Source: Nitrospirota bacterium (GTDB lineage: Bacteria; Nitrospirota; UBA9217). From it: 24,000 bases of DNA. Within the stretch, counting starts at the first letter, position 1, and every line of letters begins with the position of its first letter. The notes under the pieces were generated by a model. It worked only from the letters and a program-made list of their open reading frames with translations, was not told the DNA's origin and ran no database searches. Position numbers and translations under genes: made by a program. Of this stretch, positions 924 to 21,593 are shown in pieces. The stretch lies in assembly GCA_013334545.1 (NCBI GenBank), contig JAAXXJ010000007.1, positions 3,319 through 27,318 of the forward strand. The letters run 5' to 3'.

Positions 924-2426
924 TCAGACCTTGATCTTTTCCAGCATCTGATGGATCTCCTTCGGCATGACGCCCCTCATGGTCTTGGCGAGGTACGAAC
1001 TGGTGGCTATGATGTGGACCACCTTGATCATGAACTCTCTTTTTCTCGGGCTCATGGCATCGAGGGTGTTCATCTTGTGCATGTAGAAATCCCGTGCCGC
1101 CATGCCGAGCTCCTTTGCCACCTCCTCCAGGGTCATGTTCTTTGGCTTGACGACCGGTTCGACAAGGTTATACCTGCGGTAATCAAAGACCGCCACGTGC
1201 TCCCTGAGCGTGGGGTAGATCTCGGAATAGGGCCAGGGCGCGATCGCCAGAAAGAATGCGAGGTCGGGATTATAGAACTTGGCCAGTTCCACGGTCTTCC
1301 GCATTCCTTCCGCTGTATCATCGGGCATACCGAGCACAAAGGATGTTTCGGAAACGATGTCGTGGGCATTGATCAGATCAATAGCCCGCTTGGACTCCTC
1401 AACCTTGATGTTCTTGTTGAACAGGTCGAGCATCGCCTGATCCGTGGCCTCGACGCCCACGTAGATATGATCGACATGGGCTTTTTTATACTTCTCCATG
1501 ATATCCTCGTCACGGAGGATATCATCAACGCGGGTTTCCATAAGGATCCTGGTGCCCAGGTCCCGCTCGATCAACAGGTCGAGGATCCTTTCCCATCGCT
1601 TGCGGTCAAGCGTCGGCGTCTCGTCGGCGAACATGACCACGTTCACACCGTACCTGCCCCGCAGGTGTTCGAGCTCCGCAACGACGTTCTCGGGGCTCCG
1701 GCCCCGCCAGTTCCTCTGCCAGAACAGCTGCTGGGAGCAGAAGCTGCACCGCTGACTGCATCCGCGCGAGGTGCTGACAATGGCCAGCACCGAGTGCTCC
1801 ATGGGCTTGTACGTATAGATCGGCCAGTCCACGAGGTCCCATGCCATGGGCAGGCTGTCCAGGTCTTTGATGAAAGGCCGGGGAGGCGTGACGCTGACAG
1901 AGCCATTCCGGGCAAAAGCGATGGACCGCACCGAGGAGGGATCGCCATCGTTGGATATACAGTTGATGAGATCGACGACCGTTTCCTCGCCTTCACCCAT
2001 GACGATGTAGTCAACGGGATTGCCCTTCGCCGTCAGGATCTCGTCATAACAGTAGGTCGGGTGCACATTCCCGATGATGGTAATGATCCGGGGATCGATC
2101 TCTTTGGCCAGGGTGAGGACCTTGAGGGCATCCACGATCTCAGCGGTAAAAGCCGTGGTCCCTACCACATCAGGCTTCTCTGCTTCGATCCTCCTGCGGA
2201 TGTCATCATAGGTGTGCCAGTGGCTCATGGCATCGTATATGACCGGCTCATATCCGGCTGCCCGAAGGCTGCCCGCAAGATAGACAAAGGCGACATTCAT
2301 CCATACGCCCGCCGATTCAACAACACCGGAATGGTAGGGCGGGGTGATGAGCAGTATTTTCTTTATTCGATTTGTCATGCAATCCTTCTGTAAATACCCG
2401 ATGCTGTTTCTTGTGAGGCTGTTCAT
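924..2426 (-). CDS. B12-binding domain radical SAM protein (class B rSAM, DUF4070-like C-terminus)
   Basis: 500-aa ORF. The N-terminal Rossmann-like segment KKILLITPPYH...VGTTAFTAEI...IIGNVHPT fits a cobalamin-binding domain. The radical SAM cluster motif is present as STSRGCSQRCSFCSQ (CX4CX2C). The ATG at 2426 overlaps the upstream stop as ATGA. An alternative ATG at 2378 (MTNRIKKILLI...) is preceded by GAAGGA. Confidence 0.85.
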   Translation of the reverse strand: MNSLTRNSIGYLQKDCMTNRIKKILLITPPYHSGVVESAGVWMNVAFVYLAGSLRAAGYEPVIYDAMSHWHTYDDIRRRIEAEKPDVVGTTAFTAEIVDALKVLTLAKEIDPRIITIIGNVHPTYCYDEILTAKGNPVDYIVMGEGEETVVDLINCISNDGDPSSVRSIAFARNGSVSVTPPRPFIKDLDSLPMAWDLVDWPIYTYKPMEHSVLAIVSTSRGCSQRCSFCSQQLFWQRNWRGRSPENVVAELEHLRGRYGVNVVMFADETPTLDRKRWERILDLLIERDLGTRILMETRVDDILRDEDIMEKYKKAHVDHIYVGVEATDQAMLDLFNKNIKVEESKRAIDLINAHDIVSETSFVLGMPDDTAEGMRKTVELAKFYNPDLAFFLAIAPWPYSEIYPTLREHVAVFDYRRYNLVEPVVKPKNMTLEEVAKELGMAARDFYMHKMNTLDAMSPRKREFMIKVVHIIATSSYLAKTMRGVMPKEIHQMLEKIKV

Positions 2427-2770
2427 TTGTACACCATGACATATTGCCAGAAGATGCCGGCGCTGAATACCGCAGACAGCAGGAGATGCTTGATAACGAG
2501 CATGCGTTTTCTCAGCTTTTCGGCATCATCTCCGTAAATATTTCCCACATAGGAGTAGGTGAACATCCTTCCGGCGCCTGCGGCAAGCACCGTCGTGACA
2601 CAGACGAGACCGATAAAGAAGAATTGTTCCTTGAGGCCGAAGAGCAGTCCACCGATGCCTTTTTCCTGTTCTATGCGGTGCACCCAGTACACGGCCAATA
2701 CCGAAGCGGCCCAGCATCCGGCGGCAAAGTCGTGGAGAAATCCGATGAATATGGTAAAGGCCTTTTTCAT
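2423..2770 (-). CDS. small integral membrane protein, unknown function (about 3 TM)
   Basis: ORF 2423-2809. I prefer the ATG at 2770 (MKKAFTIFIGFLHDFAAGCWAASVLAVYW...); the longer form starts at a TTG at 2809. It has three hydrophobic segments and I recognise no family. Its stop overlaps the rSAM start (ATGA), implying translational coupling. Confidence 0.55.
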   Translation of the reverse strand: MKKAFTIFIGFLHDFAAGCWAASVLAVYWVHRIEQEKGIGGLLFGLKEQFFFIGLVCVTTVLAAGAGRMFTYSYVGNIYGDDAEKLRKRMLVIKHLLLSAVFSAGIFWQYVMVYK

Positions 2771-2839
2771 GCACTCGTTCGTTGGAGCGCTCGTTCGTAA
2801 CGGTTTCAACCCGTGATCCGAGAAGCGGGCCGTTGGAGC

Positions 2840-3322
2840 TCAACGTTGTGTATCAGTACCTTCCTGGTCCAGGAAAATATTTTCAAGCACCTTCACCTTC
2901 ATTACTTTCCAGGCGGCCCCAACCCTCACGCATTCATACTGAAGTTTCATTGCAGCCTGAATGATCTGACCGGGATTGCCGCCCGGTTTCAGAGGACGGT
3001 CATAATATCGCCATTGCTCCATGGTTTCAATGAGTTGGGAATCGGGACCGGTTGTCTGGGCGCTCACGATTTCAAGGCGTTCGAGCGTGGCTTCCAGCAC
3101 TAGGCCGCTGCCCCTTTTCGTTGTTACCAGCACGCCGACAATGCGCGCCTCCCGTTCGCCTGCAACATCAGCGAGCCTGGCCGTATCTCCTGTCCTGTGC
3201 GCCATAATGACGGCGCTGTTGTAGGAACGAACGATCTTTAAAGGGTCATCGGCTCGCGTGCAGGCAAAGTCTGCCAGGACAAACGCCGCACTGATCAGAA
3301 TGAATGTCCTGAGCTTAATCAA
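2840..3322 (-). CDS. secreted or lipoprotein of unknown function (160 aa)
   Basis: A TTG start directly abuts the ccsA stop (TAATTG). The N-terminus MIKLRTFILISAAFVLADFAC|TRADD looks like a signal peptide ending in Cys. The rest is soluble with mixed alpha/beta character and no motif I can name. The next in-frame Met is at codon 40 and would remove the signal peptide. Confidence 0.55.
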   Translation of the reverse strand: MIKLRTFILISAAFVLADFACTRADDPLKIVRSYNSAVIMAHRTGDTARLADVAGEREARIVGVLVTTKRGSGLVLEATLERLEIVSAQTTGPDSQLIETMEQWRYYDRPLKPGGNPGQIIQAAMKLQYECVRVGAAWKVMKVKVLENIFLDQEGTDTQR

Positions 3323-4144
3323 TTATCGACCTACCATGTAGGAATTATGAATCGTCGGAACCAGCAAGGTGACGATATACAACACCATGATCGCGAAACC
3401 GAACGCGACAAGCGTGAGATAGGCCATAGGGCGTCCGGACCAGCGATGGATAACCCGTAAGTGCAGGATTACGCCGAAGGCGATCCAGGCCGCCAGAGAA
3501 CTCGTTTCTATGGGATCCCAGGCCCAGTATCTCCCCCACGATTGGTGCGCCCAAAGCGATCCTGCCGCGATCATCACCCCGAGAAAGAAGAACGATACCA
3601 ACAGGAACTGGTGGCTGTAGCGGTCAAGTTTCTCTGCAGAAGGCAGCATGGACAGTCTCCGGTCTGCGCCCCTTTTTATCAGGTAGGCGACAGCGCAACC
3701 GGCAGCAAGCACGATCGTTGCAGCGAAGGCTTTTGCAAATCCGATATGCAGCAAAAGCCAGTAGGACTTGAATATGATGGGAACTTCATACTTGAGACCA
3801 TAGGCGCTGACCGCCCATCCCATGAGAAGAAACACCGCGGGCAGCACCATGGCTCCCAAGCCTTTCAACTCTTTTCTAGCCTGAACCACCCCGACAAACA
3901 TTGCAACCAGGACGAATGCGTTCGCGGACAGGACTTCGTAGCGGCTGCTGTACGGCCCGTGTCCCACCTCGACCCATCTCATTCCGAGCGAAACCGCGTG
4001 CGGGACAAGGGCCAGGAGGGTCAATCTGAAACCCCAGGCGCCGGCCAATTCCCGCTTAAATGCCGCCCAGATAAAAAAACTTGCCGTGGCGAGCGCATAC
4101 AGGGTCACGGCGGTCCAAAAAGAAATCGATTGGGCTATCATCAT
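3323..4144 (-). CDS. ccsA: cytochrome c biogenesis System II heme-handling protein CcsA/ResC
   Basis: 273-aa polytopic membrane protein carrying the tryptophan-rich WWD signature (LWAHQSWGRYWAWDPIETSS) and flanking conserved His residues (VPHAVS..., ILHLRVIH). It lies directly downstream of resB. Start is ATGATG at 4144/4141 after GAGAGGA. Confidence 0.9.
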   Translation of the reverse strand: MMIAQSISFWTAVTLYALATASFFIWAAFKRELAGAWGFRLTLLALVPHAVSLGMRWVEVGHGPYSSRYEVLSANAFVLVAMFVGVVQARKELKGLGAMVLPAVFLLMGWAVSAYGLKYEVPIIFKSYWLLLHIGFAKAFAATIVLAAGCAVAYLIKRGADRRLSMLPSAEKLDRYSHQFLLVSFFFLGVMIAAGSLWAHQSWGRYWAWDPIETSSLAAWIAFGVILHLRVIHRWSGRPMAYLTLVAFGFAIMVLYIVTLLVPTIHNSYMVGR

Positions 4145-4207
4145 TCCTCTCTCATGCGGTGCAGCTTGAACTCAGCGCAATGACGTACTATGAATGCCGG
4201 TACATTA

Positions 4208-5446
4208 TCAGGTTTTACGGTTCTTAAAGCGATACCAGTCATCTGCAAGATTATTCTCATCCTGCGTAAGGTATATCCGCATTGTTCCGGTCGTGTCTTC
4301 CTCAGCGGCAATTCCCGCAGGAATCAGCATGACAGCAGTGCCCGCCACTAAAAGCACGAAACCGAAGAATACCATTGAAACACCGGGGGATCGAGAATAG
4401 GTAAAGCCAGCCCAGTGGCTCAAGGAAACAATTCTTGCTGTCTTGCCACCGAATGCGAAGGGCCGGCCAAGCGTTAGTTCCGTTTTCACTTCTTCCCGAA
4501 GGTGATAAACGCGGAGCTTGCCGGTCCCGAGCGGATCGCTGATATCACGCTCAGCGTCAACGGAAAAGAGTATTGATCCTCCAGAGGGGTCTTTGAACTC
4601 ACCTGCCGATCGTCTTAGTGATTCCTGTCTGAGATGAAGGCTGCGCAGACCCAACCCTTGAATCTCGACATTCAGTGCAAGGCCGAAAGGGATGGCTTGA
4701 TAGATCGATACTCCATTGATGCTCACACCCTCGGATCGGTCCAAAATGGTCCGCTGCTCGCTGTCTTGCGTTCGGATCACCACCGTGCTCGCCCGGTCGG
4801 GCGCATAACCCTCCTGGTGGAGATAGGGATCGAACTGTTCAAGAGCGAGCTGAATAGGGGGTAGAGCAGATGCGGCGAAGAGGCCTGCATTCCGGTCGAA
4901 AATCACGCCGCGATCGGACAAGCGGACAATTTCACCTTCACCGATCTCGAACGAACCGGCATCATGATAGGCCTGTTGCACCAGTATTCCCAAAATCAGC
5001 AGCACGAGCCCGACATGGAAGAGCCAGCCCCTGGTCAGCGCGAAGCGGTTTCTAAAATAGGGTGGGCTGCTTTTCGTGCGGAAACCCTGTTCTTTCAGAA
5101 ACGTGGTGAAATCGCGTTCCGTTTTGACTGCTAGAACTTTTCCGCGCTGGGGGATGTTTCCCTTTAGGAGCGTCCATGCACGGCCCGTACGTTCGATCGT
5201 GCAGGCGAGGGTATTTGCGAGGAGCAAAAAAACGGCGACCAGGAACGGCGCCGAGCTGAATGGCCGGTCAAGACCGGCTGCCAGGGCCCAGCTCGGGGCT
5301 TTTACGGATCGATCAAGGTTCCAGGGAAGCCAGGAGACCACGCCGATGAAGGTCGCCAGAATGATGAGAATTGAGAGAGCAAGGCGCGGCGAAGAAAGGA
5401 AGCTCCCAATCCTTTTCCGCCGCGCCTGATCGTCCATTAACGTCAT
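4208..5446 (-). CDS. resB: cytochrome c biogenesis System II protein ResB/CcsB
   Basis: ORF 4208-5452 (TTG); I prefer the ATG at 5446. It has an N-terminal basic stretch then a TM (RRKRIGSFLSSPRLALSILIILATF...), a second TM pair, a large soluble (periplasmic) domain and a C-terminal TM (VFFGFVLLVAGTAVMLIPAG). This is the ResB topology, and the gene pairs with ccsA. It starts 7-13 nt after the cytochrome stop. Confidence 0.8.
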   Translation of the reverse strand: MTLMDDQARRKRIGSFLSSPRLALSILIILATFIGVVSWLPWNLDRSVKAPSWALAAGLDRPFSSAPFLVAVFLLLANTLACTIERTGRAWTLLKGNIPQRGKVLAVKTERDFTTFLKEQGFRTKSSPPYFRNRFALTRGWLFHVGLVLLILGILVQQAYHDAGSFEIGEGEIVRLSDRGVIFDRNAGLFAASALPPIQLALEQFDPYLHQEGYAPDRASTVVIRTQDSEQRTILDRSEGVSINGVSIYQAIPFGLALNVEIQGLGLRSLHLRQESLRRSAGEFKDPSGGSILFSVDAERDISDPLGTGKLRVYHLREEVKTELTLGRPFAFGGKTARIVSLSHWAGFTYSRSPGVSMVFFGFVLLVAGTAVMLIPAGIAAEEDTTGTMRIYLTQDENNLADDWYRFKNRKT

Positions 5447-5459
5447 GCCCAATGATACG

Positions 5460-7940
5460 TCAGTGGCCCGAGCCGTTGCAGCCGCAATTACTTCGGGTCC
5501 AGTTTGTCGTATTATTCGCCGGATAGCTATTTATGTACAGCCTGTCGCCAGTGGCCGCTCTCATGTAGGGCGCGGAATTCACCGCTGTCGGAGGAGGAAC
5601 TCCCGCGCCCCGGCCAGCCGCAGAATGGAGAAGTCCTGGATGTTCACTGCCATGCGGTATCATGACGTGGCATTTCGAGCAGGCGATACTGTGGTCGCCG
5701 CGCGAGTGTTCCGGGAAACGGCCATTGCCGTCGTTGTTTGCGTGGCAGTTCAAGCAGAAGGTCCCTGCTGGCATCCATGCATTATTCGACAAACTCGCTA
5801 TTGTGGCATTCCATGTTGTGTTCGGGCCCTTCAGGATGAAGTTAGCGGCCGAACCATGCGGTCCGTTCGGATCCGTGATTGTATCCGAAGCGTGGCAATC
5901 TGAACAGGTCATGAAGCTCGATGTTGTCCAAGGTGCGATAATATTGTTTGTTCTACCGAGGTTATTCGTGGCTGCAGCCAAAACAGGATGGAATGAACCG
6001 GCTGTCTCGCCGCTTGCCCAAGCACCTGCATAGCTGCCGACATTATTCGGATTGAACTCCCGTGCCACGTCGGTCATGGCATAACTGCCGGATGGGGAGG
6101 TGGTGTTGTACGTTCCCGAATACACGGTATGGCACTTGAAGCACAGGGTCGCCTCAGGATCGGTACCGGAAACGATCGTTTTCTGCGTAAAGTTACCCGC
6201 TGTGGGCGCAATCCAGAAGCCCGGGTATGTTGTGAATGCAGCGCCGGTGGCTCCATTCAGAACTCCTCCCGCGGCATTTGTCTGCGCAGTATGGTTGCCT
6301 GCCTTGGCCTGGTGTGCACTATGGCAGTCACTGCATTTCTCGGAACTGTGCTTTCTCGTTTTTCCGAACTGCGTCTGGATATTGCTGGTCGCGCCGTTAG
6401 CCACCGTGGTCCCATGACAGTTGTAGCAGAAGTTACCCGCGTTCGTGGCAAGATATGCAGCGATCGTTGTATCGTAGGTGAACCGCATCATCTTATATTG
6501 GCCGGAGCCGTGGGCATTCGCAGTGCCTGCATTGCCATGACACGCCAGGCAGCCACCATATACACCATTCACACTATGCGCCTGCTGCGCCGCTGTCCAG
6601 CCGATGTTCGCGGGAGACGTGTTGTCTCCGGCCACACTAAAGGGTGAAAGCGCGTTGCCGCCGAGCCTAGTTGCTCCCGTGCCGTCGTGACAGCTGGAGC
6701 AGACCTGTTCTATCCCTGCAGGCGTGGTTGCGACATAGTTCCCCGGCGTTTTGGGGTCTCTCAACTGAACATTCGGCGATGCAGGTGCGCCTGCCGGATG
6801 TCCAAAATCGGTCACCAAGTCGCCATGGCAGACTGCGCAGGCATCTCTGTTCACGATCTCCGCCGTCGTTCCATCGGTCACATGGTGGTAGGTCTTTACG
6901 AAATCTCCGCTCGATCCGGTTACGACCCTGCGTCCATTCCGGGAAGAGCGGTGACAGGAGACGCAGTCTCCCGCCTGGCCATGGCAGAGCGTATTGTTGA
7001 AGCATCCCGGATTAGCTCCCGGTGGAAGTGGAGCATAGACAGGAGTCGGTGGATTTCCCAAGTGACAAAGCCCGCAAGCCGGGGCATTGGTCTCATCAGT
7101 CGTTGGGTGTTTCCTTGTCGACGTCGACTGCCACGGGAAGGCGTGGGGAGAATCCACTCCGGCGCCATGACAGCCGCCCGTGTTCAGGCAGGTGGGCGCA
7201 ATACCAGCACCGGCGAAATTATCCCCGTGGCAGCCCTGGCAGGAACTGAAGCCTGTCGCGGCCTTTGCGGCTGCTCCGTGAGCAGCAGGGTCGTTCCAGC
7301 CGGGAGCGTGCCCTACCTGGCCGTGGCAAAGGGTATTATTGAAGCAGCCCGGCGTCCCGGCTACAAGATTCGTTGGAACGGGGACCGACGTCAAGTTGGC
7401 ACCAAGTGCATGACAATCGGCGCAAACTGCTGCATTTCCTGTATTCGTGTCTGTATGCGTTCGTGCACTGCCCGCACTTGTACGCCAAGGCGTCGGCGAA
7501 TGCGGAGAATCGACCGTCGCGCCATGACAGCCGGCCGTGTTCAAACAAGTGATCGCGAAGCCTCCGGAAAAATCCGCTCCATGGCAGTGCCCGCAGTCGG
7601 CGAATCCCGTGCTTGAGGAGGGGGCTGCTTTCGCTTCAGCTCCATGCTGTGCTGGATCGTTCCAGCCTGCAGGATGCGCATGGCAGGATATACCATTAAA
7701 GGAAGCTGAATAACAGCTTACCCCGGATATGCCGCCCGTAAGGTCGGAACCGTGGCATTCTGTGCACTGGCTCGCGTCCGAGAGAAATACCGCCGGGTGG
7801 TCCGCGACCCAGTTGTCAGGGTGCTTCCCTGTTTTGGAATCAAATATCGCGCCGCCCTTGCGCGCATCGGTGCAAGCGCCGGCCAGCAGCAACAGCCCGA
7901 TGCTCAGGGTGAAGCCAATTCGCACGCTTATCGATGACAT
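5460..7940 (-). CDS. large multiheme c-type cytochrome, probable lipoprotein (15 CXXCH plus 4 CX5CH plus 1 CX9CH)
   Basis: ORF 5460-7949 (GTG); the ATG at 7940 is preceded by GAGAGGTG. Signal peptide: ...TLSIGLLLLAGAC|TDARK. I counted 15 CXXCH motifs by eye: CTECH, CGHCH, CADCH, CQGCH, CGLCH, CVSCH, CAVCH, CSSCH, CLACH, CYNCH, CSDCH, CFKCH, CSDCH, CLNCH, CSKCH. Also present are CLNTAGCH, CFNNTLCH (twice), CLNTGGCH and CYSASFNGISCH. The remaining sequence is Gly/Ala/Thr/Asn-rich and not hydrophobic. Confidence 0.9.
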   Translation of the reverse strand: MSSISVRIGFTLSIGLLLLAGACTDARKGGAIFDSKTGKHPDNWVADHPAVFLSDASQCTECHGSDLTGGISGVSCYSASFNGISCHAHPAGWNDPAQHGAEAKAAPSSSTGFADCGHCHGADFSGGFAITCLNTAGCHGATVDSPHSPTPWRTSAGSARTHTDTNTGNAAVCADCHALGANLTSVPVPTNLVAGTPGCFNNTLCHGQVGHAPGWNDPAAHGAAAKAATGFSSCQGCHGDNFAGAGIAPTCLNTGGCHGAGVDSPHAFPWQSTSTRKHPTTDETNAPACGLCHLGNPPTPVYAPLPPGANPGCFNNTLCHGQAGDCVSCHRSSRNGRRVVTGSSGDFVKTYHHVTDGTTAEIVNRDACAVCHGDLVTDFGHPAGAPASPNVQLRDPKTPGNYVATTPAGIEQVCSSCHDGTGATRLGGNALSPFSVAGDNTSPANIGWTAAQQAHSVNGVYGGCLACHGNAGTANAHGSGQYKMMRFTYDTTIAAYLATNAGNFCYNCHGTTVANGATSNIQTQFGKTRKHSSEKCSDCHSAHQAKAGNHTAQTNAAGGVLNGATGAAFTTYPGFWIAPTAGNFTQKTIVSGTDPEATLCFKCHTVYSGTYNTTSPSGSYAMTDVAREFNPNNVGSYAGAWASGETAGSFHPVLAAATNNLGRTNNIIAPWTTSSFMTCSDCHASDTITDPNGPHGSAANFILKGPNTTWNATIASLSNNAWMPAGTFCLNCHANNDGNGRFPEHSRGDHSIACSKCHVMIPHGSEHPGLLHSAAGRGAGVPPPTAVNSAPYMRAATGDRLYINSYPANNTTNWTRSNCGCNGSGH

Positions 7941-8371
7941 GTTCTGCACCTCTCATTGTTCTGATACCCGTGGCAGGGGAAGCAGGACGCGGGGTCCAGC
8001 TTGCCGTCGATCTTGTGCTGGTTCAGGTAATCCCCACGGTGCGGCATCGTTCTCTGCGGGGCATCCTTGTACTTATCACTGGGCTTCAGCTCTTCCTTGT
8101 TCGCGTGGCAGTCCGCGCAGAAGGCCTGCGTGTGGCAGAGCTCGCAGGTCCGCTTCTGCTGGGCGGCCGAGAACTGGTGCCGGCTGGCCCAGTTCTCCCG
8201 GTGGTCCATGGAGGTGCGCCAGTCGGTGTGGCAGTTGCTGCAGACCGGCATGCCCTGCACCTCCATGGGGTGCTTCGCCGGGAGGCTCTGCGTGGTCGCG
8301 CAGGCGAACAGGATGCCGGCGATCATCATTGCCATACTGCCGAGGATCAGGGTCTTTGCTGTTCCGCTCAT
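7928..8371 (-). CDS. small pentaheme c-type cytochrome, probable lipoprotein
   Basis: 147 aa. Signal peptide MSGTAKTLILGSMAMMIAGILFAC|ATTQS. Five CXXCH motifs (CSNCH, CELCH, CADCH, CFPCH, CRTCH) fall within about 120 mature residues. ATG at 8371 after AGGAGAGG. The 3' end overlaps the next cytochrome start by 13 nt. Confidence 0.9.
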   Translation of the reverse strand: MSGTAKTLILGSMAMMIAGILFACATTQSLPAKHPMEVQGMPVCSNCHTDWRTSMDHRENWASRHQFSAAQQKRTCELCHTQAFCADCHANKEELKPSDKYKDAPQRTMPHRGDYLNQHKIDGKLDPASCFPCHGYQNNERCRTCHR

Positions 8372-8394: not shown

Positions 8395-9708
8395 CTAGGG
8401 CTTCTTCCCGCCGGGCTTTGCGGCGCCGGCGGACGGCGCAGTCTTGGCCGCTCCGCCGAGCTTTGCATCGAAGTTATAGACGAAGTTCAGCATGCCGCGT
8501 ACTTCCCGGATGACGTCGGGATTCGAGACGTACTCCACATCGGCGACGACACGGGTCCTTGGTGAGAAGGTGTAACCTGCGGCAGCGGTCCCCGTGTAGG
8601 CATCTGACACGCCGTTGACCGGCTGATCGTAGGACACATGGACGAAATCGAGGGTTATATCCGCTTTGGCGATCTTCTTGAACACGTACACGCGCTGATC
8701 ATCGTAGCAAAGGTCGTCGGACGGCCCGTTCATGCGATGCAGGGCGACCCCGGCGCCGAAGCCGGCGCCCGTGTACACGACGCTGCCTCCCCCATAGGTC
8801 GCCGAATCGTTCAGGACCTGGTAATCGTAGTTCCGATAATCAGCAATGACCGTGACCGGCCCGCCGATGGTTATGGCGATGCTCCCGCCGGCCATGGTGA
8901 CGATCTCGTTCGGATCGATGTTCGTGAACGAGAAGGCGCTCATCAGCATGCTCTGCGTGGTATTGACCGCCGAGAAATATTCTTTATACCAGGTCTTTGA
9001 GGCGTTGAGGTTCAGGCGGAACCATGCAAACGGGCCGATTGCTGCGTGATACTGGTGCTGCATCCAGTTCTTGGACGAACCGTTATAGGACGATGTGCCC
9101 ATGAGCTCCAGCTTGCTCAGCGGCCTGATCCACAGGTCAAGGCCCTCTTCCTTGCGGAAGTCCTTTCCGTCGTTCTTTTCCTTCAGGTAGGACACGCCGA
9201 TGGTGTAGATGCCGGGCAATCCCTGGGAGACCCTGCCGCCGTACGCTGAATCCCCAGAACGCGTGTCGCCGTCGGTCTCGACGGGATTGCCGCCATATGC
9301 CGCGATGGTGAAACCGCCCTTGAGGTCCGTGCGGGCATAGGCACCGTCGATCTGCGCTGAGGCGACCCCCTCATTTACCCGGAGCCTCCCGAAGCTCAGC
9401 GCCGAGTTGCCGGTTTTCCTTTTCAGGGTCACATAGGCGTACTGGAGGTCTCCGGTGGATGTTGAGCCAAACTGCTCGTTCTGCAGATCATACCGGTACC
9501 ATCCTCCGAAATGGAATGAGACGGCATCAGAGCCTGTTTTGCCGGCTGTGAAGCTGAGATATTCATACAGCGGCAGGTACCGCGTGCCATCTGTGGCCTG
9601 GCTGGACTGAAGATAGGTGCGTGACTGCCCCGCAAGGTCGACGGCTGAAGCGGTAAGGGGGAGCGAAACAAGGAGGGACAATGATGCGGCGACGCGAAGT
9701 GATCTCAT
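8395..9708 (-). CDS. outer-membrane beta-barrel (porin-like) protein
   Basis: 437 aa. Sec signal MRSLRVAASLSLLVSLPLTASA|VDLAG. The sequence is rich in alternating aromatic/polar beta-strand patterns (YEYLSFTAG, VSFHFGGWYRYDL, YAYVTLKR, FTIAAYGG, YTIGVSYLK, ADITLDFVHVSY, AAAGYTFS). A beta-signal-like ...GMLNFVYNF is followed by a 24-aa Lys/Ala/Gly/Pro tail. It is the first gene of the operon. Confidence 0.75.
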   Translation of the reverse strand: MRSLRVAASLSLLVSLPLTASAVDLAGQSRTYLQSSQATDGTRYLPLYEYLSFTAGKTGSDAVSFHFGGWYRYDLQNEQFGSTSTGDLQYAYVTLKRKTGNSALSFGRLRVNEGVASAQIDGAYARTDLKGGFTIAAYGGNPVETDGDTRSGDSAYGGRVSQGLPGIYTIGVSYLKEKNDGKDFRKEEGLDLWIRPLSKLELMGTSSYNGSSKNWMQHQYHAAIGPFAWFRLNLNASKTWYKEYFSAVNTTQSMLMSAFSFTNIDPNEIVTMAGGSIAITIGGPVTVIADYRNYDYQVLNDSATYGGGSVVYTGAGFGAGVALHRMNGPSDDLCYDDQRVYVFKKIAKADITLDFVHVSYDQPVNGVSDAYTGTAAAGYTFSPRTRVVADVEYVSNPDVIREVRGMLNFVYNFDAKLGGAAKTAPSAGAAKPGGKKP

Positions 9709-14155: not shown

Positions 14156-14270
14156 CTGCGCCGATTAGCAAGGGTCAAGGGTCCAGGAACATCAAACCCC
14201 TGAATTCGGCTGTTCCCGGTGATCTCGGTGCCCTCGGTGGCGAGATTGTTGCTTGATCAGGAGGTCTTGC

Positions 14271-16166
14271 TTGGCAGCTACGTACACCGCAAAGGACATC
14301 ACCGTTCTCGAAGGGCTGGAGCCGGTCAGGAAGCGGCCGGCCATGTACATCGGCTCGACGGACTCGCGGGGGCTCCACCATCTCGTGTGGGAGGTGCTGG
14401 ACAACGCCGTTGACGAGGCATTGAACGGCTACTGCACCGCCATCACGTTGCGGATCGAAAAGGACGGGGGCGTGACCGTCACCGACAACGGCCGCGGCAT
14501 CCCCGTGGACATCCACGCGAAGACGAAGCGGCCGGCCATCGAGACCATCCTCTGCACGCTCCATGCGGGAGGCAAGTTCGACCACACAGCCTACCGGTCA
14601 TCGGGCGGCCTGCACGGCGTGGGCGCCTCGGTCGTGAACGCCCTCGCTGACGTATTCACCGCCAGGGTGTGGCGCGACGGATATGAATGGAACCAGGAGT
14701 TCTCCCGCGGCAAGCCGAAGGGGAGCCTGAAAAAAGGCAAGCCCACCAAAGCCCACGGCACGGAGATCTATTTCAAGCCGGACCCCGACATCTTTTCCAA
14801 GACCACCTTCAACGCCAAGACCATCCTTGACGTCGCCGAGAGCAAGGCCTTTCTGAACAAGGGCCTCAAGATCACCGTCGAGAACGCGCGCGACAACGAA
14901 AAGCCGGTCACCTTCAAGTATGACAACGGGATCCAGGACTATATCAAGCGGATCGTTGCGGGCACGACCGTGGTGAACGCCGAGCCGTTCTATCTCGAGA
15001 AAGTGGACGACTTCAAGATCGAGTGCGCCGTCCACTGGACCCTGGCGACGGACATGGAGATCCATTCCTACGCCAACTCCATCAACACCACCGACGGCGG
15101 CACCCACGAGCTGGCGGTGCGGTCCGGCCTCACCAAGGCGGTGCGCGCCTACGCGGAGCGCAAGAACCTGATTCCCAAGAACATCAAGACCCTGGCGCCC
15201 GAGGACGTGTACGAAGGCCTCTACGGCATCGTGAGCGTGCTGGTCAAGAACCCGCAGTTCCAGGGCCAGACCAAGGAGAAGCTGAACAACCCCGAGATAT
15301 CCACACCCATCGAGAACTCGGTCAAGAACGCCTGCGAGGCCTACCTGCTTGCGAACCCGACCATGGCCGACGCTGTGGTGAAGCGCGTGCTGCTGGCAGC
15401 CGAGGCGCGGATGGCGTCGCGCGCGGCCAAGGACAGCGTCACCCGGAAGCTGTCGTCGCTCAAGCTGAACCTGCCGGGCAAGCTCGCGGACTGCTCGTCC
15501 AGCAAGGTCGAGGAGTCTGAGCTCTTCATCGTGGAAGGGGACTCGGCAGGCGGGTCGGCCAAGATGGCCCGGGACCGGAAGACCCAGGCCGTGCTGTCGC
15601 TCCGCGGAAAGATCCTGAATGTGGAGCAGGTCGCATCGCTCGAGCGCATCCAGTCGAACAACGAGATCAAGAACCTCCTGGCCACGCTAGGTTGCGGCGT
15701 GGGCAGCCACTTCGACCTCGCCAAGCTCCGGTACAACCGCGTCATCCTCATGACCGACGCGGACGTGGACGGTGCGCACATCAGCGTCCTCCTCCTGACC
15801 TTCATCTACCGGTATATGCCCGAGCTGATCAACAAGGGCCATGTGTTCCTCGCCATGCCGCCGCTGTACCGCATCGAGGCGGGCAAGGAAGTGTTCTACG
15901 CCATGGACGAGATGGAGAAGGACAAGATCCTGGCGAAGATGAACGGCAAGAAGTTCGAAGTGGGCCGCTTTAAGGGACTGGGCGAGATGAACCCGGAGAC
16001 GCTCAAGGAGACCACCATGAACCCCAGGACCCGCTCGCTCATGAAGGTCCAGGTCCTCGATCACAAGGCTACGGGCGACACCTTCGAGCGGCTCATGGGC
16101 AAGGACCCTAAGGCGCGGTTCGCATTCATCCAGGAGCGGGCGGAATACGCGGAGCTGGATATTTAG
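14271..16166 (+). CDS. gyrB: type IIA DNA topoisomerase ATPase subunit B (DNA gyrase B; ParE not excluded)
   Basis: Matches seen: LEGLEPVRKRPAMYIGST, GLHHLVWEVLDNAVDEA (GHKL N-box), DNGRGIPV, GGLHGVGASVVNALA, the Toprim block ELFIVEGDSAGGSAK, ILMTDADVDGAHI and the C-terminus ...AELDI. The short ~630-aa form lacks the proteobacterial insert. I prefer the TTG at 14271, 6 nt after AGGAGG; the track start at 14253 is also TTG. No A subunit is adjacent. Confidence 0.85.
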   Translation: MAATYTAKDITVLEGLEPVRKRPAMYIGSTDSRGLHHLVWEVLDNAVDEALNGYCTAITLRIEKDGGVTVTDNGRGIPVDIHAKTKRPAIETILCTLHAGGKFDHTAYRSSGGLHGVGASVVNALADVFTARVWRDGYEWNQEFSRGKPKGSLKKGKPTKAHGTEIYFKPDPDIFSKTTFNAKTILDVAESKAFLNKGLKITVENARDNEKPVTFKYDNGIQDYIKRIVAGTTVVNAEPFYLEKVDDFKIECAVHWTLATDMEIHSYANSINTTDGGTHELAVRSGLTKAVRAYAERKNLIPKNIKTLAPEDVYEGLYGIVSVLVKNPQFQGQTKEKLNNPEISTPIENSVKNACEAYLLANPTMADAVVKRVLLAAEARMASRAAKDSVTRKLSSLKLNLPGKLADCSSSKVEESELFIVEGDSAGGSAKMARDRKTQAVLSLRGKILNVEQVASLERIQSNNEIKNLLATLGCGVGSHFDLAKLRYNRVILMTDADVDGAHISVLLLTFIYRYMPELINKGHVFLAMPPLYRIEAGKEVFYAMDEMEKDKILAKMNGKKFEVGRFKGLGEMNPETLKETTMNPRTRSLMKVQVLDHKATGDTFERLMGKDPKARFAFIQERAEYAELDI

Positions 16167-16794: not shown

Positions 16795-17090
16795 AGCTGT
16801 ACCCCCCTTTTCGGCTTATCAGTCAGATACGCGGTAAGCACAAATGCATCCTCTATTCCATACTTTACCACAGCGCATAACCACTTGTCACCAACCAAGG
16901 TACCATAATAGTAGCGATAGTTCAGGTTCGCCGACGTATCGGCTCCGGATCGTATGACCAGTTGAGGTTTGAGTAGTGTTTCCTCAAGTGCAGCTTCCAT
17001 ATCGACCATTTCAGGGTGCTCCTTGATGTGTGCTAATCGTTCATCGGTTAATCGGACAGGCTTGCCTTGATAATCCCTGAGCACCTTCAT
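16779..17090 (-). CDS. small conserved hypothetical protein, candidate toxin partner of DUF2283 (function unproven)
   Basis: 103 aa. It contains LTDERLAHIKEHPEM...LLKPQLVI...KWLCAVVKY...AFVLTAYLTDKPKRG. This His-rich 'H-I-x-x-HPE' N-terminal motif with a 'TAY' C-terminal strand recurs in small proteins found next to DUF2283 genes. Its ATG overlaps the RM gene stop (ATGA). Confidence 0.55.
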   Translation of the reverse strand: MKVLRDYQGKPVRLTDERLAHIKEHPEMVDMEAALEETLLKPQLVIRSGADTSANLNYRYYYGTLVGDKWLCAVVKYGIEDAFVLTAYLTDKPKRGVQLWPSK

Positions 17091-19960: not shown

Positions 19961-20051
19961 GCAGAAAAGACTATTACAATTGATGAAAAATGGCAAGCGA
20001 TGAATCCGATGTGGTTCGCTGTTAGGTGCGTTTCCCGGCCGGTTTTTCTGA

Positions 20052-20080
20052 TTGCAGTCCTATCGCCTATTTGGTATAGT
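20052..20080 (+). promoter_or_regulatory. probable sigma70 promoter of the trp operon
   Basis: TTGCAG (20052-20057), a 17-nt spacer, then TATAGT (20075-20080). It lies about 28 nt upstream of the trpE ATG at 20109, leaving too short a leader for a leader peptide or T-box. Confidence 0.55.
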
Positions 20081-20108
20081 AAAAACTCTTTTATTAGCAA
20101 GGGGTTTT

Positions 20109-21593
<1,485 letters not shown>

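What the first reader, a model, noticed from the sequence alone, without database searches (positions are those of the whole stretch)
6930..7775. Modular array of CXXCH sites alternating with non-canonical CX5CH / CX9CH sites
The N-terminal third of the large cytochrome is built from five consecutive pairs: a canonical CXXCH followed 12-22 residues later by a longer-spaced Cys...Cys-His site.

The five pairs are:
- CTECH ... CYSASFNGISCH (CX9CH)
- CGHCH ... CLNTAGCH
- CADCH ... CFNNTLCH
- CQGCH ... CLNTGGCH
- CGLCH ... CFNNTLCH

Two module flavours alternate. One reads PxGWNDPAxHGAxAKAA...C-x-G-CHG-x-(D/N)-F-(S/A)-G...TCLNTxGCHGAxVDSPH. The other reads ...PGCFNNTLCHGQ. This indicates internal duplication.

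The exact conservation of the CX5CH spacing and of its flanks (CLNTxGCHG, CFNNTLCHGQ) argues that these are functional sites, not chance cysteines. If they bind heme, the protein carries about 20 hemes. The arrangement is reminiscent of the Geobacter 'CxxxxCH...CXXCH' repeat and of doubled-CXXCH domains, but the spacing here is five residues.
Basis: seen in the sequence. Interest (0 to 1): 0.72.

Follow-up and report, generated by a model that had tools for sequence, protein, structure and literature searches.

The report
Unrecognised CX5CH haem sites in cytochrome
A surface electron-transfer protein of an uncultured Nitrospirota bacterium carries five extra, perfectly conserved Cys-X5/9-Cys-His sites that almost certainly bind haem, so it is a 20-haem rather than a 15-haem wire, and standard haem-counting rules miss a quarter of its cofactors.

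Summary
ORF 5460-7949 (minus strand, 829 aa, lipoprotein signal) has 15 CXXCH sites plus one CX9CH and four CX5CH sites, arranged as five CXXCH/CXnCH pairs.

Residues 93-214 and 215-328 are two copies of a ~120-aa, four-site super-module. That module was found 459 times in 119 homologues.

Three lines of evidence support haem binding at the long-spaced sites:
- Every Cys and His of these sites is invariant in 88 aligned homologues.
- At the same aligned positions other homologues, including the closest orthologue, carry canonical CXXCH, or CX3CH, CX4CH, CX7CH and CX14CH. The second Cys and the His stay fixed while the first Cys slides.
- The 302-residue array has no Met and exactly ten further conserved His for ten sites, which fits bis-His ligation.

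The protein is therefore best read as a 20-haem cytochrome, the outer component of a conserved cluster of porin-like protein, pentahaem cytochrome and lipoprotein cytochrome.

TIGR01904 and Pfam models do not recognise the array, no solved structure matches it, and a full-text search found no paper naming CX5CH.

The ResB/CcsA pair downstream tracks the C-terminal domain, not the CX5CH array. Covalent haem attachment remains unproven biochemically.

The parts
5460..7949 (-). Gene for the 829-aa lipoprotein multihaem cytochrome. It has 15 CXXCH, 4 CX5CH and 1 CX9CH sites.
   Evidence: ORF and translation; motif map. It has 495 homologues and is identical to the NCBI MAG protein HGB21_00870 (Nitrospirae bacterium), which is annotated in N-terminally truncated form.
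7872..7949 (-). Signal peptide with a lipobox (LLLAGA-C26).
   Evidence: Hydrophobic segment at aa 4-22. Cys26 is conserved in 87 of 88 homologues.
7674..7832 (-). Module 1 (aa 40-92). It holds H43, H51, C62TECH, C79-X9-C89H and H92.
   Evidence: The second site is CX9CH in 70 homologues, CXXCH in 4, CX5CH in 2 and CX6CH in 1.
7680..7715 (-). The CX9CH site, CYSASFNGISCH (aa 79-90).
   Evidence: It is conserved in 77 of 77 homologues that have this region.
7308..7673 (-). Super-module 1 (aa 93-214). It holds H102, C119GHCH, C135LNTAGCH, H150, H165, C176ADCH, C202FNNTLCH and H214.
   Evidence: An HMM of this unit finds 459 near-full copies in 119 proteins. The Cys and His columns are invariant in alignments A1 and A2.
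7524..7547 (-). CX5CH site CLNTAGCH (aa 135-142).
   Evidence: It aligns with CFTCH in the closest orthologue, P0001.
7323..7346 (-). CX5CH site CFNNTLCH (aa 202-209).
   Evidence: This position is CX5CH in 404 of 459 instances, CXXCH in 12 and CX14CH in about 43.
6966..7307 (-). Super-module 2 (aa 215-328). It holds H224, C237QGCH, C254LNTGGCH, H269, H281, C292GLCH and C316FNNTLCH.
7167..7190 (-). CX5CH site CLNTGGCH (aa 254-261).
   Evidence: It aligns with CFTCH in P0001.
6981..7004 (-). CX5CH site CFNNTLCH (aa 316-323).
5463..6965 (-). C-terminal domain (aa 329-829) with 10 CXXCH sites and a conserved NCGCNGSGH tail. It is a separate evolutionary unit from the array.
   Evidence: It carries the Pfam Paired_CXXCH_1 hit at aa 465-515. 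In other proteins the same domain is fused to CX4CH-type repeats instead of the CX5CH array (L094).
7928..8371 (-). Upstream 147-aa cytochrome with five CXXCH sites. It is the presumed periplasmic or in-pore partner.
   Evidence: A homologue lies next to the array cytochrome in 61 of 86 loci.
8395..9708 (-). Upstream 437-aa secreted protein, the presumed outer-membrane porin of the conduit.
   Evidence: It has a signal peptide and no Pfam, NCBIfam or PDB hit. A homologue is adjacent in 57 of 86 loci. The porin role is inferred from synteny and from analogy with known porin-cytochrome clusters.
4208..5452 (-). ResB-like protein (system II cytochrome c synthase subunit).
   Evidence: Pfam ResB, E = 7e-16. 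It is syntenic in L003, L087, L088, L089 and L090.
3323..4144 (-). CcsA-like haem lyase subunit with the motif WGRYWAWDPIE. It is linked to the C-terminal domain, not to the array.
   Evidence: Pfam Cytochrom_C_asm hit. TIGR03144 scores 136 bits, below the 187.6-bit cut-off.
2840..3322 (-). 160-aa protein of unknown function with an N-terminal hydrophobic segment. It travels with the ResB/CcsA pair.
   Evidence: No family hit. Homologues follow CcsA in L003, L087-L090 and many metagenome loci.

Best explanation
The four CX5CH sites and the CX9CH site are covalent haem c attachment sites. In each, the second Cys and the His keep the canonical geometry, and the first Cys sits on a longer loop.

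Together with the five neighbouring CXXCH sites they make the N-terminal 302 residues a ten-haem, all bis-His wire. The wire is built from one two-site starter module and two copies of a four-site super-module of about 120 residues. With the ten CXXCH sites of the C-terminal domain, the mature lipoprotein carries 20 haems.

The protein is the cell-surface component of a three-gene conduit: a porin-like protein, a small pentahaem cytochrome and the lipoprotein cytochrome. The conduit moves electrons across the outer membrane to or from extracellular substrates.

Shown here: the motifs, their invariance, their interchange with canonical sites, the His stoichiometry and the synteny.

Inferred: that haem is attached, that ligation is bis-His, the direction and substrate of electron flow, and that the 437-aa protein is a porin.
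For: - All Cys and His of the extra sites are invariant in 88 full-length homologues with 34-85% identity.
- In 459 copies of the super-module, the conserved columns are H10, CxxCH, C-x5-CH, H59, H72, CxxCH, C-x5-CH and H120.
- The first long-spaced site of the super-module is CX5CH in 261 copies and CXXCH in 133, plus about 35 misaligned CSSCH copies. It is CX4CH in 13, CX3CH in 10, CX7CH in 4 and CX9CH in 2.
- The second long-spaced site is CX5CH in 404 copies, CXXCH in 12 and CX14CH in about 43.
- The alignment shows a clean 3-residue indel between invariant cysteines: CLNTAGCHGAGV against CFT---CHG--V.
- The closest orthologue, P0001, has CFTCH at both CLNTxGCH positions.
- The array has 0 Met and 21 His. 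Ten His are proximal, ten are conserved non-motif His (43, 51, 92, 102, 150, 165, 214, 224, 269 and 281), and only H121 is variable.
- CX3CH, CX4CH and longer spacings are accepted haem motifs elsewhere (PMC11492766).
- AlphaFold places short helices over CFNNTLCH, as it does over the CXXCH sites, with pLDDT of 65-86 across most of the array.
- Homologues of the porin-like protein and the pentahaem cytochrome are adjacent in 57 and 61 of 86 loci.
Against: - There is no biochemical evidence for any member of the family.
- No solved structure or curated family model covers the array.
- No paper in the searchable library mentions CX5CH. The spacing itself therefore has no experimental precedent there, although subscription-journal literature was not searched.
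- The AlphaFold models are only moderately confident and contain no cofactors. Coordinates could not be inspected, so site geometry was not measured.
- Conservation of Cys-Cys-His would in principle also fit a different metal site.
Confidence: 0.82

Rival explanations
1. The CX5C and CX9C cysteines do not bind haem. They form structural disulfides or coordinate another metal together with the following His, and the protein has 15 haems.
For: The protein is exported to an oxidising compartment where disulfides are common. CX5CH has no documented precedent as a haem site in the searched literature. Cofactor binding cannot be read from sequence.
Against: - A disulfide does not explain the invariant His after the second Cys.
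- It does not explain the ten extra conserved His.
- It does not explain the replacement of these sites by canonical CXXCH at the same aligned position, including in an orthologue with 83-85% overall identity.
- With only five haems, the 302-residue array would hold 15 unexplained invariant His and 10 unexplained invariant Cys.
Confidence: 0.08
2. The long-spaced sites bind haem, but only with the help of the specialised ResB/CcsA synthase encoded directly downstream. This would parallel Wolinella CcsA1, which serves the CX15CH site of MccA.
For: - A ResB/CcsA pair lies immediately downstream, and the CcsA scores below the equivalog cut-off: 136 bits against 187.6 for TIGR03144.
- The block is syntenic in L003, L087, L088, L089 and L090.
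- Dedicated lyases are documented for CX15CH and CXXCK (PMC12285233).
Against: - Only 8 of 86 loci encoding CX5CH arrays have a CcsA gene nearby.
- L088 and L092 come from the same metagenome with the same upstream synteny, and both encode CX5CH arrays, but only L088 has the lyase genes.
- The lyase orthologue in L094 sits next to a cytochrome that has the same C-terminal domain but CX4CH/CX3CH repeats instead of the CX5CH array.
- Of 29 CcsA-relative loci with enough upstream DNA, 24 encode the C-terminal domain upstream.
- The lyase therefore tracks the C-terminal domain, not the array.
Confidence: 0.08
3. The extra Cys...CysHis sites are chance occurrences or decayed relics of former CXXCH sites with no present function.
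For: Repetitive, low-complexity, Cys- and His-rich sequences can generate motif-like strings.
Against: Shuffle tests give 20 CH dipeptides against a mean of 2.45, and 11 of 20,000 shuffles reach five CX3-9CH sites. The sites are invariant across 88 homologues and 459 module copies.
Confidence: 0.02

Closest known systems
TIGR01904 / PF09698 GSu_C4xC__C2xCH (Geobacter CxxxxCH...CXXCH repeat domain)
   Same: Both are tandem repeats that pair a long-spaced Cys...CysHis site with a canonical CXXCH in large extracellular cytochromes of Geobacterales. Many homologues of this protein carry true TIGR01904 repeats in their C-terminal halves and are named after them. A profile-profile alignment puts CX5CH..PW..CXXCH onto CX4CH..W..CXXCH, with 64% probability and E = 6e-5.
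   Different: The spacing is 5 (or 9), not 4. The repeating unit is a four-site module of about 120 aa with four conserved distal His, not a two-site unit of about 40-70 aa. The TIGR01904 and PF09698 models do not detect it at E <= 1.
CX3CH/CX4CH sites of tetrahaem cytochrome c3 and CX14CH of Geobacter OmcZ (accepted non-canonical haem c motifs)
   Same: The second Cys and the His are retained, and the first Cys sits on a longer loop. In this family the same aligned site occurs as CX2, CX3, CX4, CX5, CX7, CX9 and CX14. These motifs are listed as known in PMC11492766. That OmcZ carries a CX14CH site is recalled from memory; the paper opened here did not contain the term in its main text.
   Different: CX5CH and CX9CH are not on the published lists and had zero full-text hits. 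Here the long-spaced form is the majority state and occurs 4-12 times per protein. No sequence or fold similarity to c3 or OmcZ was detected.
Wolinella succinogenes MccA (CX15CH) with dedicated lyase CcsA1; NrfA (CXXCK) with NrfI
   Same: An unconventional haem motif lies in a multihaem cytochrome, with a system II synthase gene next to the cytochrome gene.
   Different: The linked ResB/CcsA here co-varies with the C-terminal domain and its Cys-containing tail, not with the CX5CH array. About 90% of CX5CH-array genes have no linked lyase.
Porin-cytochrome conduits (Geobacter OmaB-OmbB-OmcB/Ext clusters, Shewanella MtrCAB, PCC3 of iron oxidisers)
   Same: The gene trio encodes a secreted porin-sized protein, a small multihaem cytochrome and a large lipoprotein multihaem cytochrome. 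The trio is conserved across Nitrospirota, Geobacterales, Desulfuromonadaceae, Deferrimicrobiaceae and Geothrix.
   Different: The periplasmic partner is a 147-aa pentahaem protein, whereas OmaB has 8 haems (from memory) and the PCC3 periplasmic cytochrome has 21-27 (PMC10734462). The porin-like protein matches no known family. Homology to the named systems was not tested.

Membership tests
c-type multihaem cytochrome | Export signal and multiple CXXCH motifs | tested here: met
   Lipoprotein-type signal with conserved Cys26 and 15 CXXCH motifs. Pfam Cytochrome_C7 and Paired_CXXCH_1 score above their cut-offs.
c-type multihaem cytochrome | Covalent thioether-bound haem at each Cys...CysHis site, including CX5CH and CX9CH | not testable with these tools
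   Only comparative evidence is available: invariance, interchange with CXXCH and His stoichiometry.
TIGR01904 / PF09698 (CxxxxCH...CXXCH domain) | HMM score at or above the curated cut-off (27 bits) | tested here: not met
   No TIGR01904 or PF09698 hit at E <= 1 for the whole protein, or at E <= 10 for the array alone. The model does hit homologues, but only at their true CX4CH sites.
TIGR01904 / PF09698 (CxxxxCH...CXXCH domain) | Four residues between the cysteines of the long site | tested here: not met
   The spacing is 5 at four sites and 9 at one.
TIGR01904 / PF09698 (CxxxxCH...CXXCH domain) | Detectable remote homology to bona fide repeats | tested here: inconclusive
   hhalign of A1 against A4 gives probability 64% and E = 6.4e-5 over 44 columns.
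PF09699 / TIGR01905 Paired_CXXCH_1 | HMM match over the region in question | tested here: not met
   The whole protein scores 53.9 bits, but the best stretch is aa 465-515 in the C-terminal domain. The array alone gives no hit.
Porin-cytochrome outer-membrane conduit | Adjacent genes for a periplasmic multihaem cytochrome and a surface lipoprotein multihaem cytochrome | tested here: met
   The 147-aa protein with five CXXCH sites lies immediately upstream, and the big cytochrome has a lipobox. The partner is adjacent in 61 of 86 loci.
Porin-cytochrome outer-membrane conduit | Adjacent outer-membrane beta-barrel porin | tested here: inconclusive
   The 437-aa protein has a signal peptide and is conserved in 57 of 86 loci.
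Porin-cytochrome outer-membrane conduit | Sequence homology to OmaB/OmbB/OmcB, Ext or MtrABC components | not tested
   No reference sequences were compared. There is only a sub-threshold Pfam MtrC/MtrF-domain hit for the small cytochrome.
Unconventional haem motif served by a dedicated system II lyase (MccA/CcsA1 type) | Lyase paralogue genetically linked to the cytochrome that carries the motif | tested here: not met
   The lyase is linked in this window, but across the family it follows the C-terminal domain and not the CX5CH array.
Unconventional haem motif served by a dedicated system II lyase (MccA/CcsA1 type) | Motif is not matured without the dedicated lyase | not testable with these tools
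   This needs genetics or heterologous expression.

The most novel reading that the evidence does not exclude
CX5CH, with CX9CH and CX14CH at equivalent sites, is a genuine and so far unlisted haem c attachment motif. It is the majority state in a four-haem building block used by hundreds of extracellular cytochromes of Nitrospirota, Geobacterales and relatives. One fold therefore offers a natural series of first-Cys spacings (2, 3, 4, 5, 7, 9, 14) that general maturation systems can handle.

Separately, the C-terminal domain, with its conserved Cys-containing tail (here NCGCNGSGH), has its own co-inherited ResB-CcsA-lipoprotein maturation module. This would imply a second, still unidentified unconventional cofactor attachment in the same protein.
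Probability: 0.3. Interest if true: 0.7.

Novelty: new variant of a known kind. Interest (0 to 1): 0.55.

Why it matters
**Haem counts.** Haem counts drive how extracellular-electron-transfer cytochromes are classified, modelled and compared. Current surveys count CXXCH plus a short list of alternatives: CX2-4CH in PMC10734462, and CX3CH, CX4CH, CX11CH, CX15CH and CX17CH in PMC11492766. If CX5CH, CX9CH and CX14CH sites bind haem, members of this family are undercounted by 25-40%. Examples are 15 against 20 haems here, and 20 CXXCH against 36 Cys...CysHis sites in P0009. In AlphaFold-plus-haem models their haem chains would appear broken.

**Scale of the family.** The family has 495 representatives at E <= 1e-10 among 1.84 billion cluster representatives. 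It occurs in cultured Geomonas, Oryzomonas, Pelotalea, Geobacter argillaceus and Geothrix strains, so the prediction can be tested directly by mass spectrometry.

**Lyase specificity.** The series of spacings at one homologous site is also a ready-made substrate panel for studying the specificity of cytochrome c synthases.

Tried and rejected
1. I first took the downstream ResB/CcsA pair as support for haem binding at CX5CH, by analogy with dedicated lyases. I rejected this. Only 8 of 86 array loci have a linked CcsA. The L088/L092 comparison, the L094 orthologue and the CcsA-centred metagenome scan all show that the lyase follows the C-terminal domain.

2. Membership in TIGR01904 or Paired_CXXCH for the array is not supported by the HMM scans.

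3. Solved-structure searches gave nothing usable:
   - phmmer with the whole protein: no hit
   - profile of the super-module: best E = 0.09
   - C-terminal domain: no hit
   - porin-like protein: noise only

4. AlphaFold2 of the full protein was poor overall (pLDDT 51; C-terminal domain below 50), with only the array at 65-86. The array alone gave pLDDT 66 and pTM 0.49. Foldseek of that model against the PDB found nothing (best E = 2.6).

6. Co-loss analysis, meant to pair each distal His with its haem, failed. The apparent site losses were alignment shifts of CSSCH sites.

7. I considered the C-terminal CGC...H tail as a 21st haem site. This remains undecided. The first Cys is conserved family-wide, but the His is not.

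8. Literature searches for CX5CH in several spellings returned nothing relevant.
Full report
**1. What is in the sequence**

The finding lies inside a minus-strand ORF, 5460-7949, that encodes an 829-aa protein.

The protein begins with a hydrophobic signal and a lipobox (LLLAGA-C26). It contains 43 cysteines:
- Cys26 of the lipobox
- 30 in 15 CXXCH motifs
- 10 in five longer sites
- 2 in a C-terminal CGC

The five longer sites are C79-X9-C89H, C135LNTAGCH, C202FNNTLCH, C254LNTGGCH and C316FNNTLCH. The coordinates 6930-7775 cover all five pairs.

The pattern is not a composition effect. There are 20 Cys-His dipeptides, against a mean of 2.45 (maximum 10) in 20,000 shuffles. Only 11 of 20,000 shuffles reach five CX3-9CH sites.

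**2. Repeat anatomy**

Residues 93-214 and 215-328 are two copies of a super-module of about 120 residues, with 69 identical residues over 125 aligned columns. Each copy has an 'A' half and a 'B' half:
- A half: PxGWxxPxxHG..AK...CxxCHG..F.GG...CLNTxGCHG..V.SPH
- B half: PW...(T/K)H(T/P).T...NA..CxxCH...GCFNNTLCHG..GH

Residues 40-92 form a starter module holding CTECH and the CX9CH site.

An HMM built from the two copies and iterated over the homologues found 459 near-full-length copies in 119 proteins. The near-invariant columns are H10, C27xxC30H31, C44x5C50H51, H59, H72, C83xxC86H87, C108x5C114H115 and H120.

**3. Evidence that the long-spaced sites bind haem**

(a) Invariance. In an alignment of 88 full-length homologues (34-85% identity), every Cys and His of the four CX5CH sites is invariant. 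Those of the CX9CH site are present in all 77 sequences that have the N-terminus.

(b) Interchange with canonical sites.
- Across the 459 module copies, the first long-spaced site is CX5CH in 261 and CXXCH in 133. About 35 more CSSCH copies were shifted by the aligner. It is CX4CH in 13, CX3CH in 10, CX7CH in 4 and CX9CH in 2.
- The second long-spaced site is CX5CH in 404, CXXCH in 12 and CX14CH in about 43.
- The starter-module site is CX9CH in 70 homologues, CXXCH in 4, CX5CH in 2 and CX6CH in 1.
- The MAFFT alignment shows a clean three-residue indel between invariant cysteines: CLNTAGCHGAGV against CFT---CHG--V.
- The closest orthologue, P0001 (83-85% identity overall), has CFTCH at both CLNTxGCH positions.
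- So the second Cys and the His are fixed and the first Cys slides. This is the behaviour of the accepted non-canonical haem c motifs CX3CH, CX4CH and CX11-17CH, which are listed in PMC11492766.

(c) Ligand stoichiometry. The 302-residue array has no methionine, 20 Cys and 21 His. Ten His are the proximal His of the ten sites. Ten more (43, 51, 92, 102, 150, 165, 214, 224, 269 and 281) are conserved. Only H121, inside CGHCH, varies. Ten sites with ten extra conserved His is what ten bis-His haems require. With five haems there would be a large unexplained surplus.

(d) Structure prediction. AlphaFold2 models give the array moderate confidence (pLDDT 65-86 for most blocks). They place short helices over both CFNNTLCH sites, as they do over the CXXCH sites. 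This is weak support only. The models carry no cofactors, and I could not read coordinates.

I put the probability that these sites carry covalent haem at about 0.8-0.85. That makes the array a ten-haem wire with about 30 residues per haem, and the protein a 20-haem cytochrome.

**4. What it is not**

- NCBIfam TIGR01904 and TIGR01905 and Pfam PF09698 do not hit the protein. The Pfam Paired_CXXCH_1 and Cytochrome_C7 hits lie in the C-terminal domain.
- The array alone gives no hit above threshold.
- TIGR01904 does hit several homologues, but at true CX4CH sites (CSNVSCH, CAATYCH) in their C-terminal halves. That explains why NCBI and JGI name them 'CxxxxCH/CxxCH' proteins.
- A profile-profile comparison of the super-module with true CX4CH...CXXCH segments gives a weak match: 64% probability and E = 6e-5. 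It aligns CX5CH..PW..CXXCH onto CX4CH..W..CXXCH. The array is plausibly a distant, expanded relative of that repeat, but it is not a member by the curated test.
- No solved structure matches by sequence, profile or fold.
- Full-text searches for CX5CH, CXXXXXCH, CX9CH and spelling variants found no paper that uses them for haem binding. Subscription journals are not covered by that library.

**5. Genomic context and distribution**

The minus-strand gene order in the window is:
- a 437-aa secreted protein with no family hit (8395-9708)
- a 147-aa cytochrome with five CXXCH sites (7928-8371)
- the big cytochrome
- a ResB-like protein (4208-5452)
- a CcsA-like protein (3323-4144)
- a 160-aa protein and a 128-aa protein, both of unknown function
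- a B12-binding radical SAM enzyme
- MarC

A pattern scan of 185,579 species genomes found 204 confirmed loci encoding the super-module. They come from Nitrospirota and Thermodesulfovibrionales MAGs, Geobacterales (Geobacter argillaceus, Oryzomonas japonica, Geomonas silvestris and G. limicola, Pelotalea chapellei), Desulfuromonadaceae, Deferrimicrobiaceae and Geothrix oryzisoli.

In 86 loci examined, homologues of the 437-aa protein are adjacent in 57 and homologues of the pentahaem cytochrome in 61. The array cytochrome is therefore the lipoprotein member of a conserved three-gene cluster of the porin-cytochrome type. The porin assignment rests on synteny and analogy, not on a family match.

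An exhaustive HMM search of 1.84 billion cluster representatives found 891 proteins at E <= 1e-3, 495 at E <= 1e-10 and 195 at E <= 1e-30.

**6. The linked cytochrome c synthase does not belong to the array**

I first read the ResB/CcsA pair as a dedicated lyase for the odd motifs, as in Wolinella, where CcsA1 serves CX15CH and NrfI serves CXXCK (PMC12285233). The evidence goes against this reading:
- Only 8 of 86 array loci have a CcsA nearby.
- Every checked protein whose C-terminus ends in NCGCNG[ST]GH-like sequence has ResB, CcsA and a ~160-aa protein immediately downstream. These are the window, P0001, P0003, P0004, P0007 and P0008.
- L088 and L092 come from one metagenome and share upstream synteny, and both encode CX5CH arrays. 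Only L088, the one with the CGC tail, has the lyase genes.
- A metagenome scan with the CcsA protein found a close clade (at least 57% identity). Every member with enough upstream DNA follows a cytochrome that ends in a CXC tail.
- One of these, L094, has the same C-terminal domain fused to CX4CH/CX3CH repeats instead of the CX5CH array.
- Of 29 CcsA-relative loci with at least 2.5 kb of upstream DNA, 24 encode a homologue of the C-terminal domain upstream, typically about one ResB-sized gene away.

The synthase therefore co-inherits with the C-terminal domain. Most CX5CH arrays have no linked lyase gene, so they are presumably matured by the organism's general system, as CX3CH and CX4CH sites are elsewhere.

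What the dedicated synthase does in the C-terminal domain is unexplained. The first Cys of the tail is conserved family-wide. The second Cys lies at a variable distance, and a following His is not conserved in distant members.

**7. Verdict**

The feature is a new variant of a known kind: a non-canonical CXnCH haem c motif with n = 5 or 9, as the dominant state of a previously unmodelled four-haem repeat. It is not a new category.

It matters mainly because current haem-counting conventions (CX2-4CH plus a few long motifs; PMC10734462 and PMC11492766) undercount this family by a quarter or more. Cultured carriers also make the prediction easy to test by mass spectrometry. The decisive experiments are listed separately.

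Noticed in passing
window 5463-5486 (minus strand), aa 822-829: The cytochrome ends in ...NCGCNGSGH. This CXC...H tail is conserved in the close homologues P0001, P0003-5, P0007, P0008 and P0010, and in metagenome loci L094, L098, L101, L105 and L110. More distant homologues have CX4CH, CX5CH, CX8CH or CX9CH at the same place, or a C...WM...C-x-N-P-P tail without His. It may be an odd 21st cofactor site, a Cys ligand or a disulfide.
   Followed up: partly
window 2840-5452 (minus strand); loci L003, L087-L090, L093-L172: The trio of ResB-like, CcsA-like and 160-aa proteins is co-inherited with the C-terminal domain (aa ~600-829: CFKCH...SFHPV...CSDCH...GPHGS...) of this cytochrome family. Of 29 CcsA-relative loci with enough upstream DNA, 24 encode that domain upstream, down to about 30% CcsA identity. 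This points to a dedicated maturation system whose special substrate site has not been identified.
   Followed up: partly
L094:2-3301: An orthologue of the C-terminal domain (59% identity, CGC tail, same linked lyase genes) carries CX4CH/CX3CH repeats at its N-terminus (CASTYCH, CSANWCH, CATYCH, CVTMCH) instead of the CX5CH array. Haem-repeat arrays are therefore swapped as cassettes onto a constant C-terminal domain.
   Followed up: partly
homologues P0090 (aa 576-592), P0064 (aa 570-586) and about 43 module copies: At the position of CFNNTLCH, some Geobacterales homologues have CFSTTFTN......CH, which is a CX14CH site. This is the same spacing as the unusual site reported for Geobacter OmcZ (from memory). 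No homology to OmcZ was tested.
   Followed up: no
window 924-2809 (minus strand): A BchE-like B12-binding radical SAM gene (TIGR02026 at 400 bits, below its 481-bit cut-off) and a 128-aa membrane protein follow the lyase genes. The same gene order occurs in the closest relative's contig, L090. Their function in this cluster is unknown.
   Followed up: no
window 17087-19996 (minus strand): A 969-aa fused restriction-modification enzyme (Eco57I, MmeI, N6_Mtase and TaqI_C domains) sits in a low-GC island (GC 0.44-0.48, against about 0.58 elsewhere), between gyrB (14253-16166) and trpE (20052-21593). It is probably horizontally acquired.
   Followed up: no
window 5460-7949, compared with NCBI protein HGB21_00870 (P0002): The public annotation of this protein is 644 aa. 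It is 100% identical but covers only 78% of the ORF, and so lacks the signal peptide, the CX9CH site and the first CX5CH site. Public haem counts for it are even lower as a result.
   Followed up: no
window 7928-8371 (minus strand): The small pentahaem cytochrome has an N-terminal hydrophobic segment ending in ILFAC. This could be a lipobox, in which case it would be membrane-anchored rather than soluble in the periplasm.
   Followed up: no
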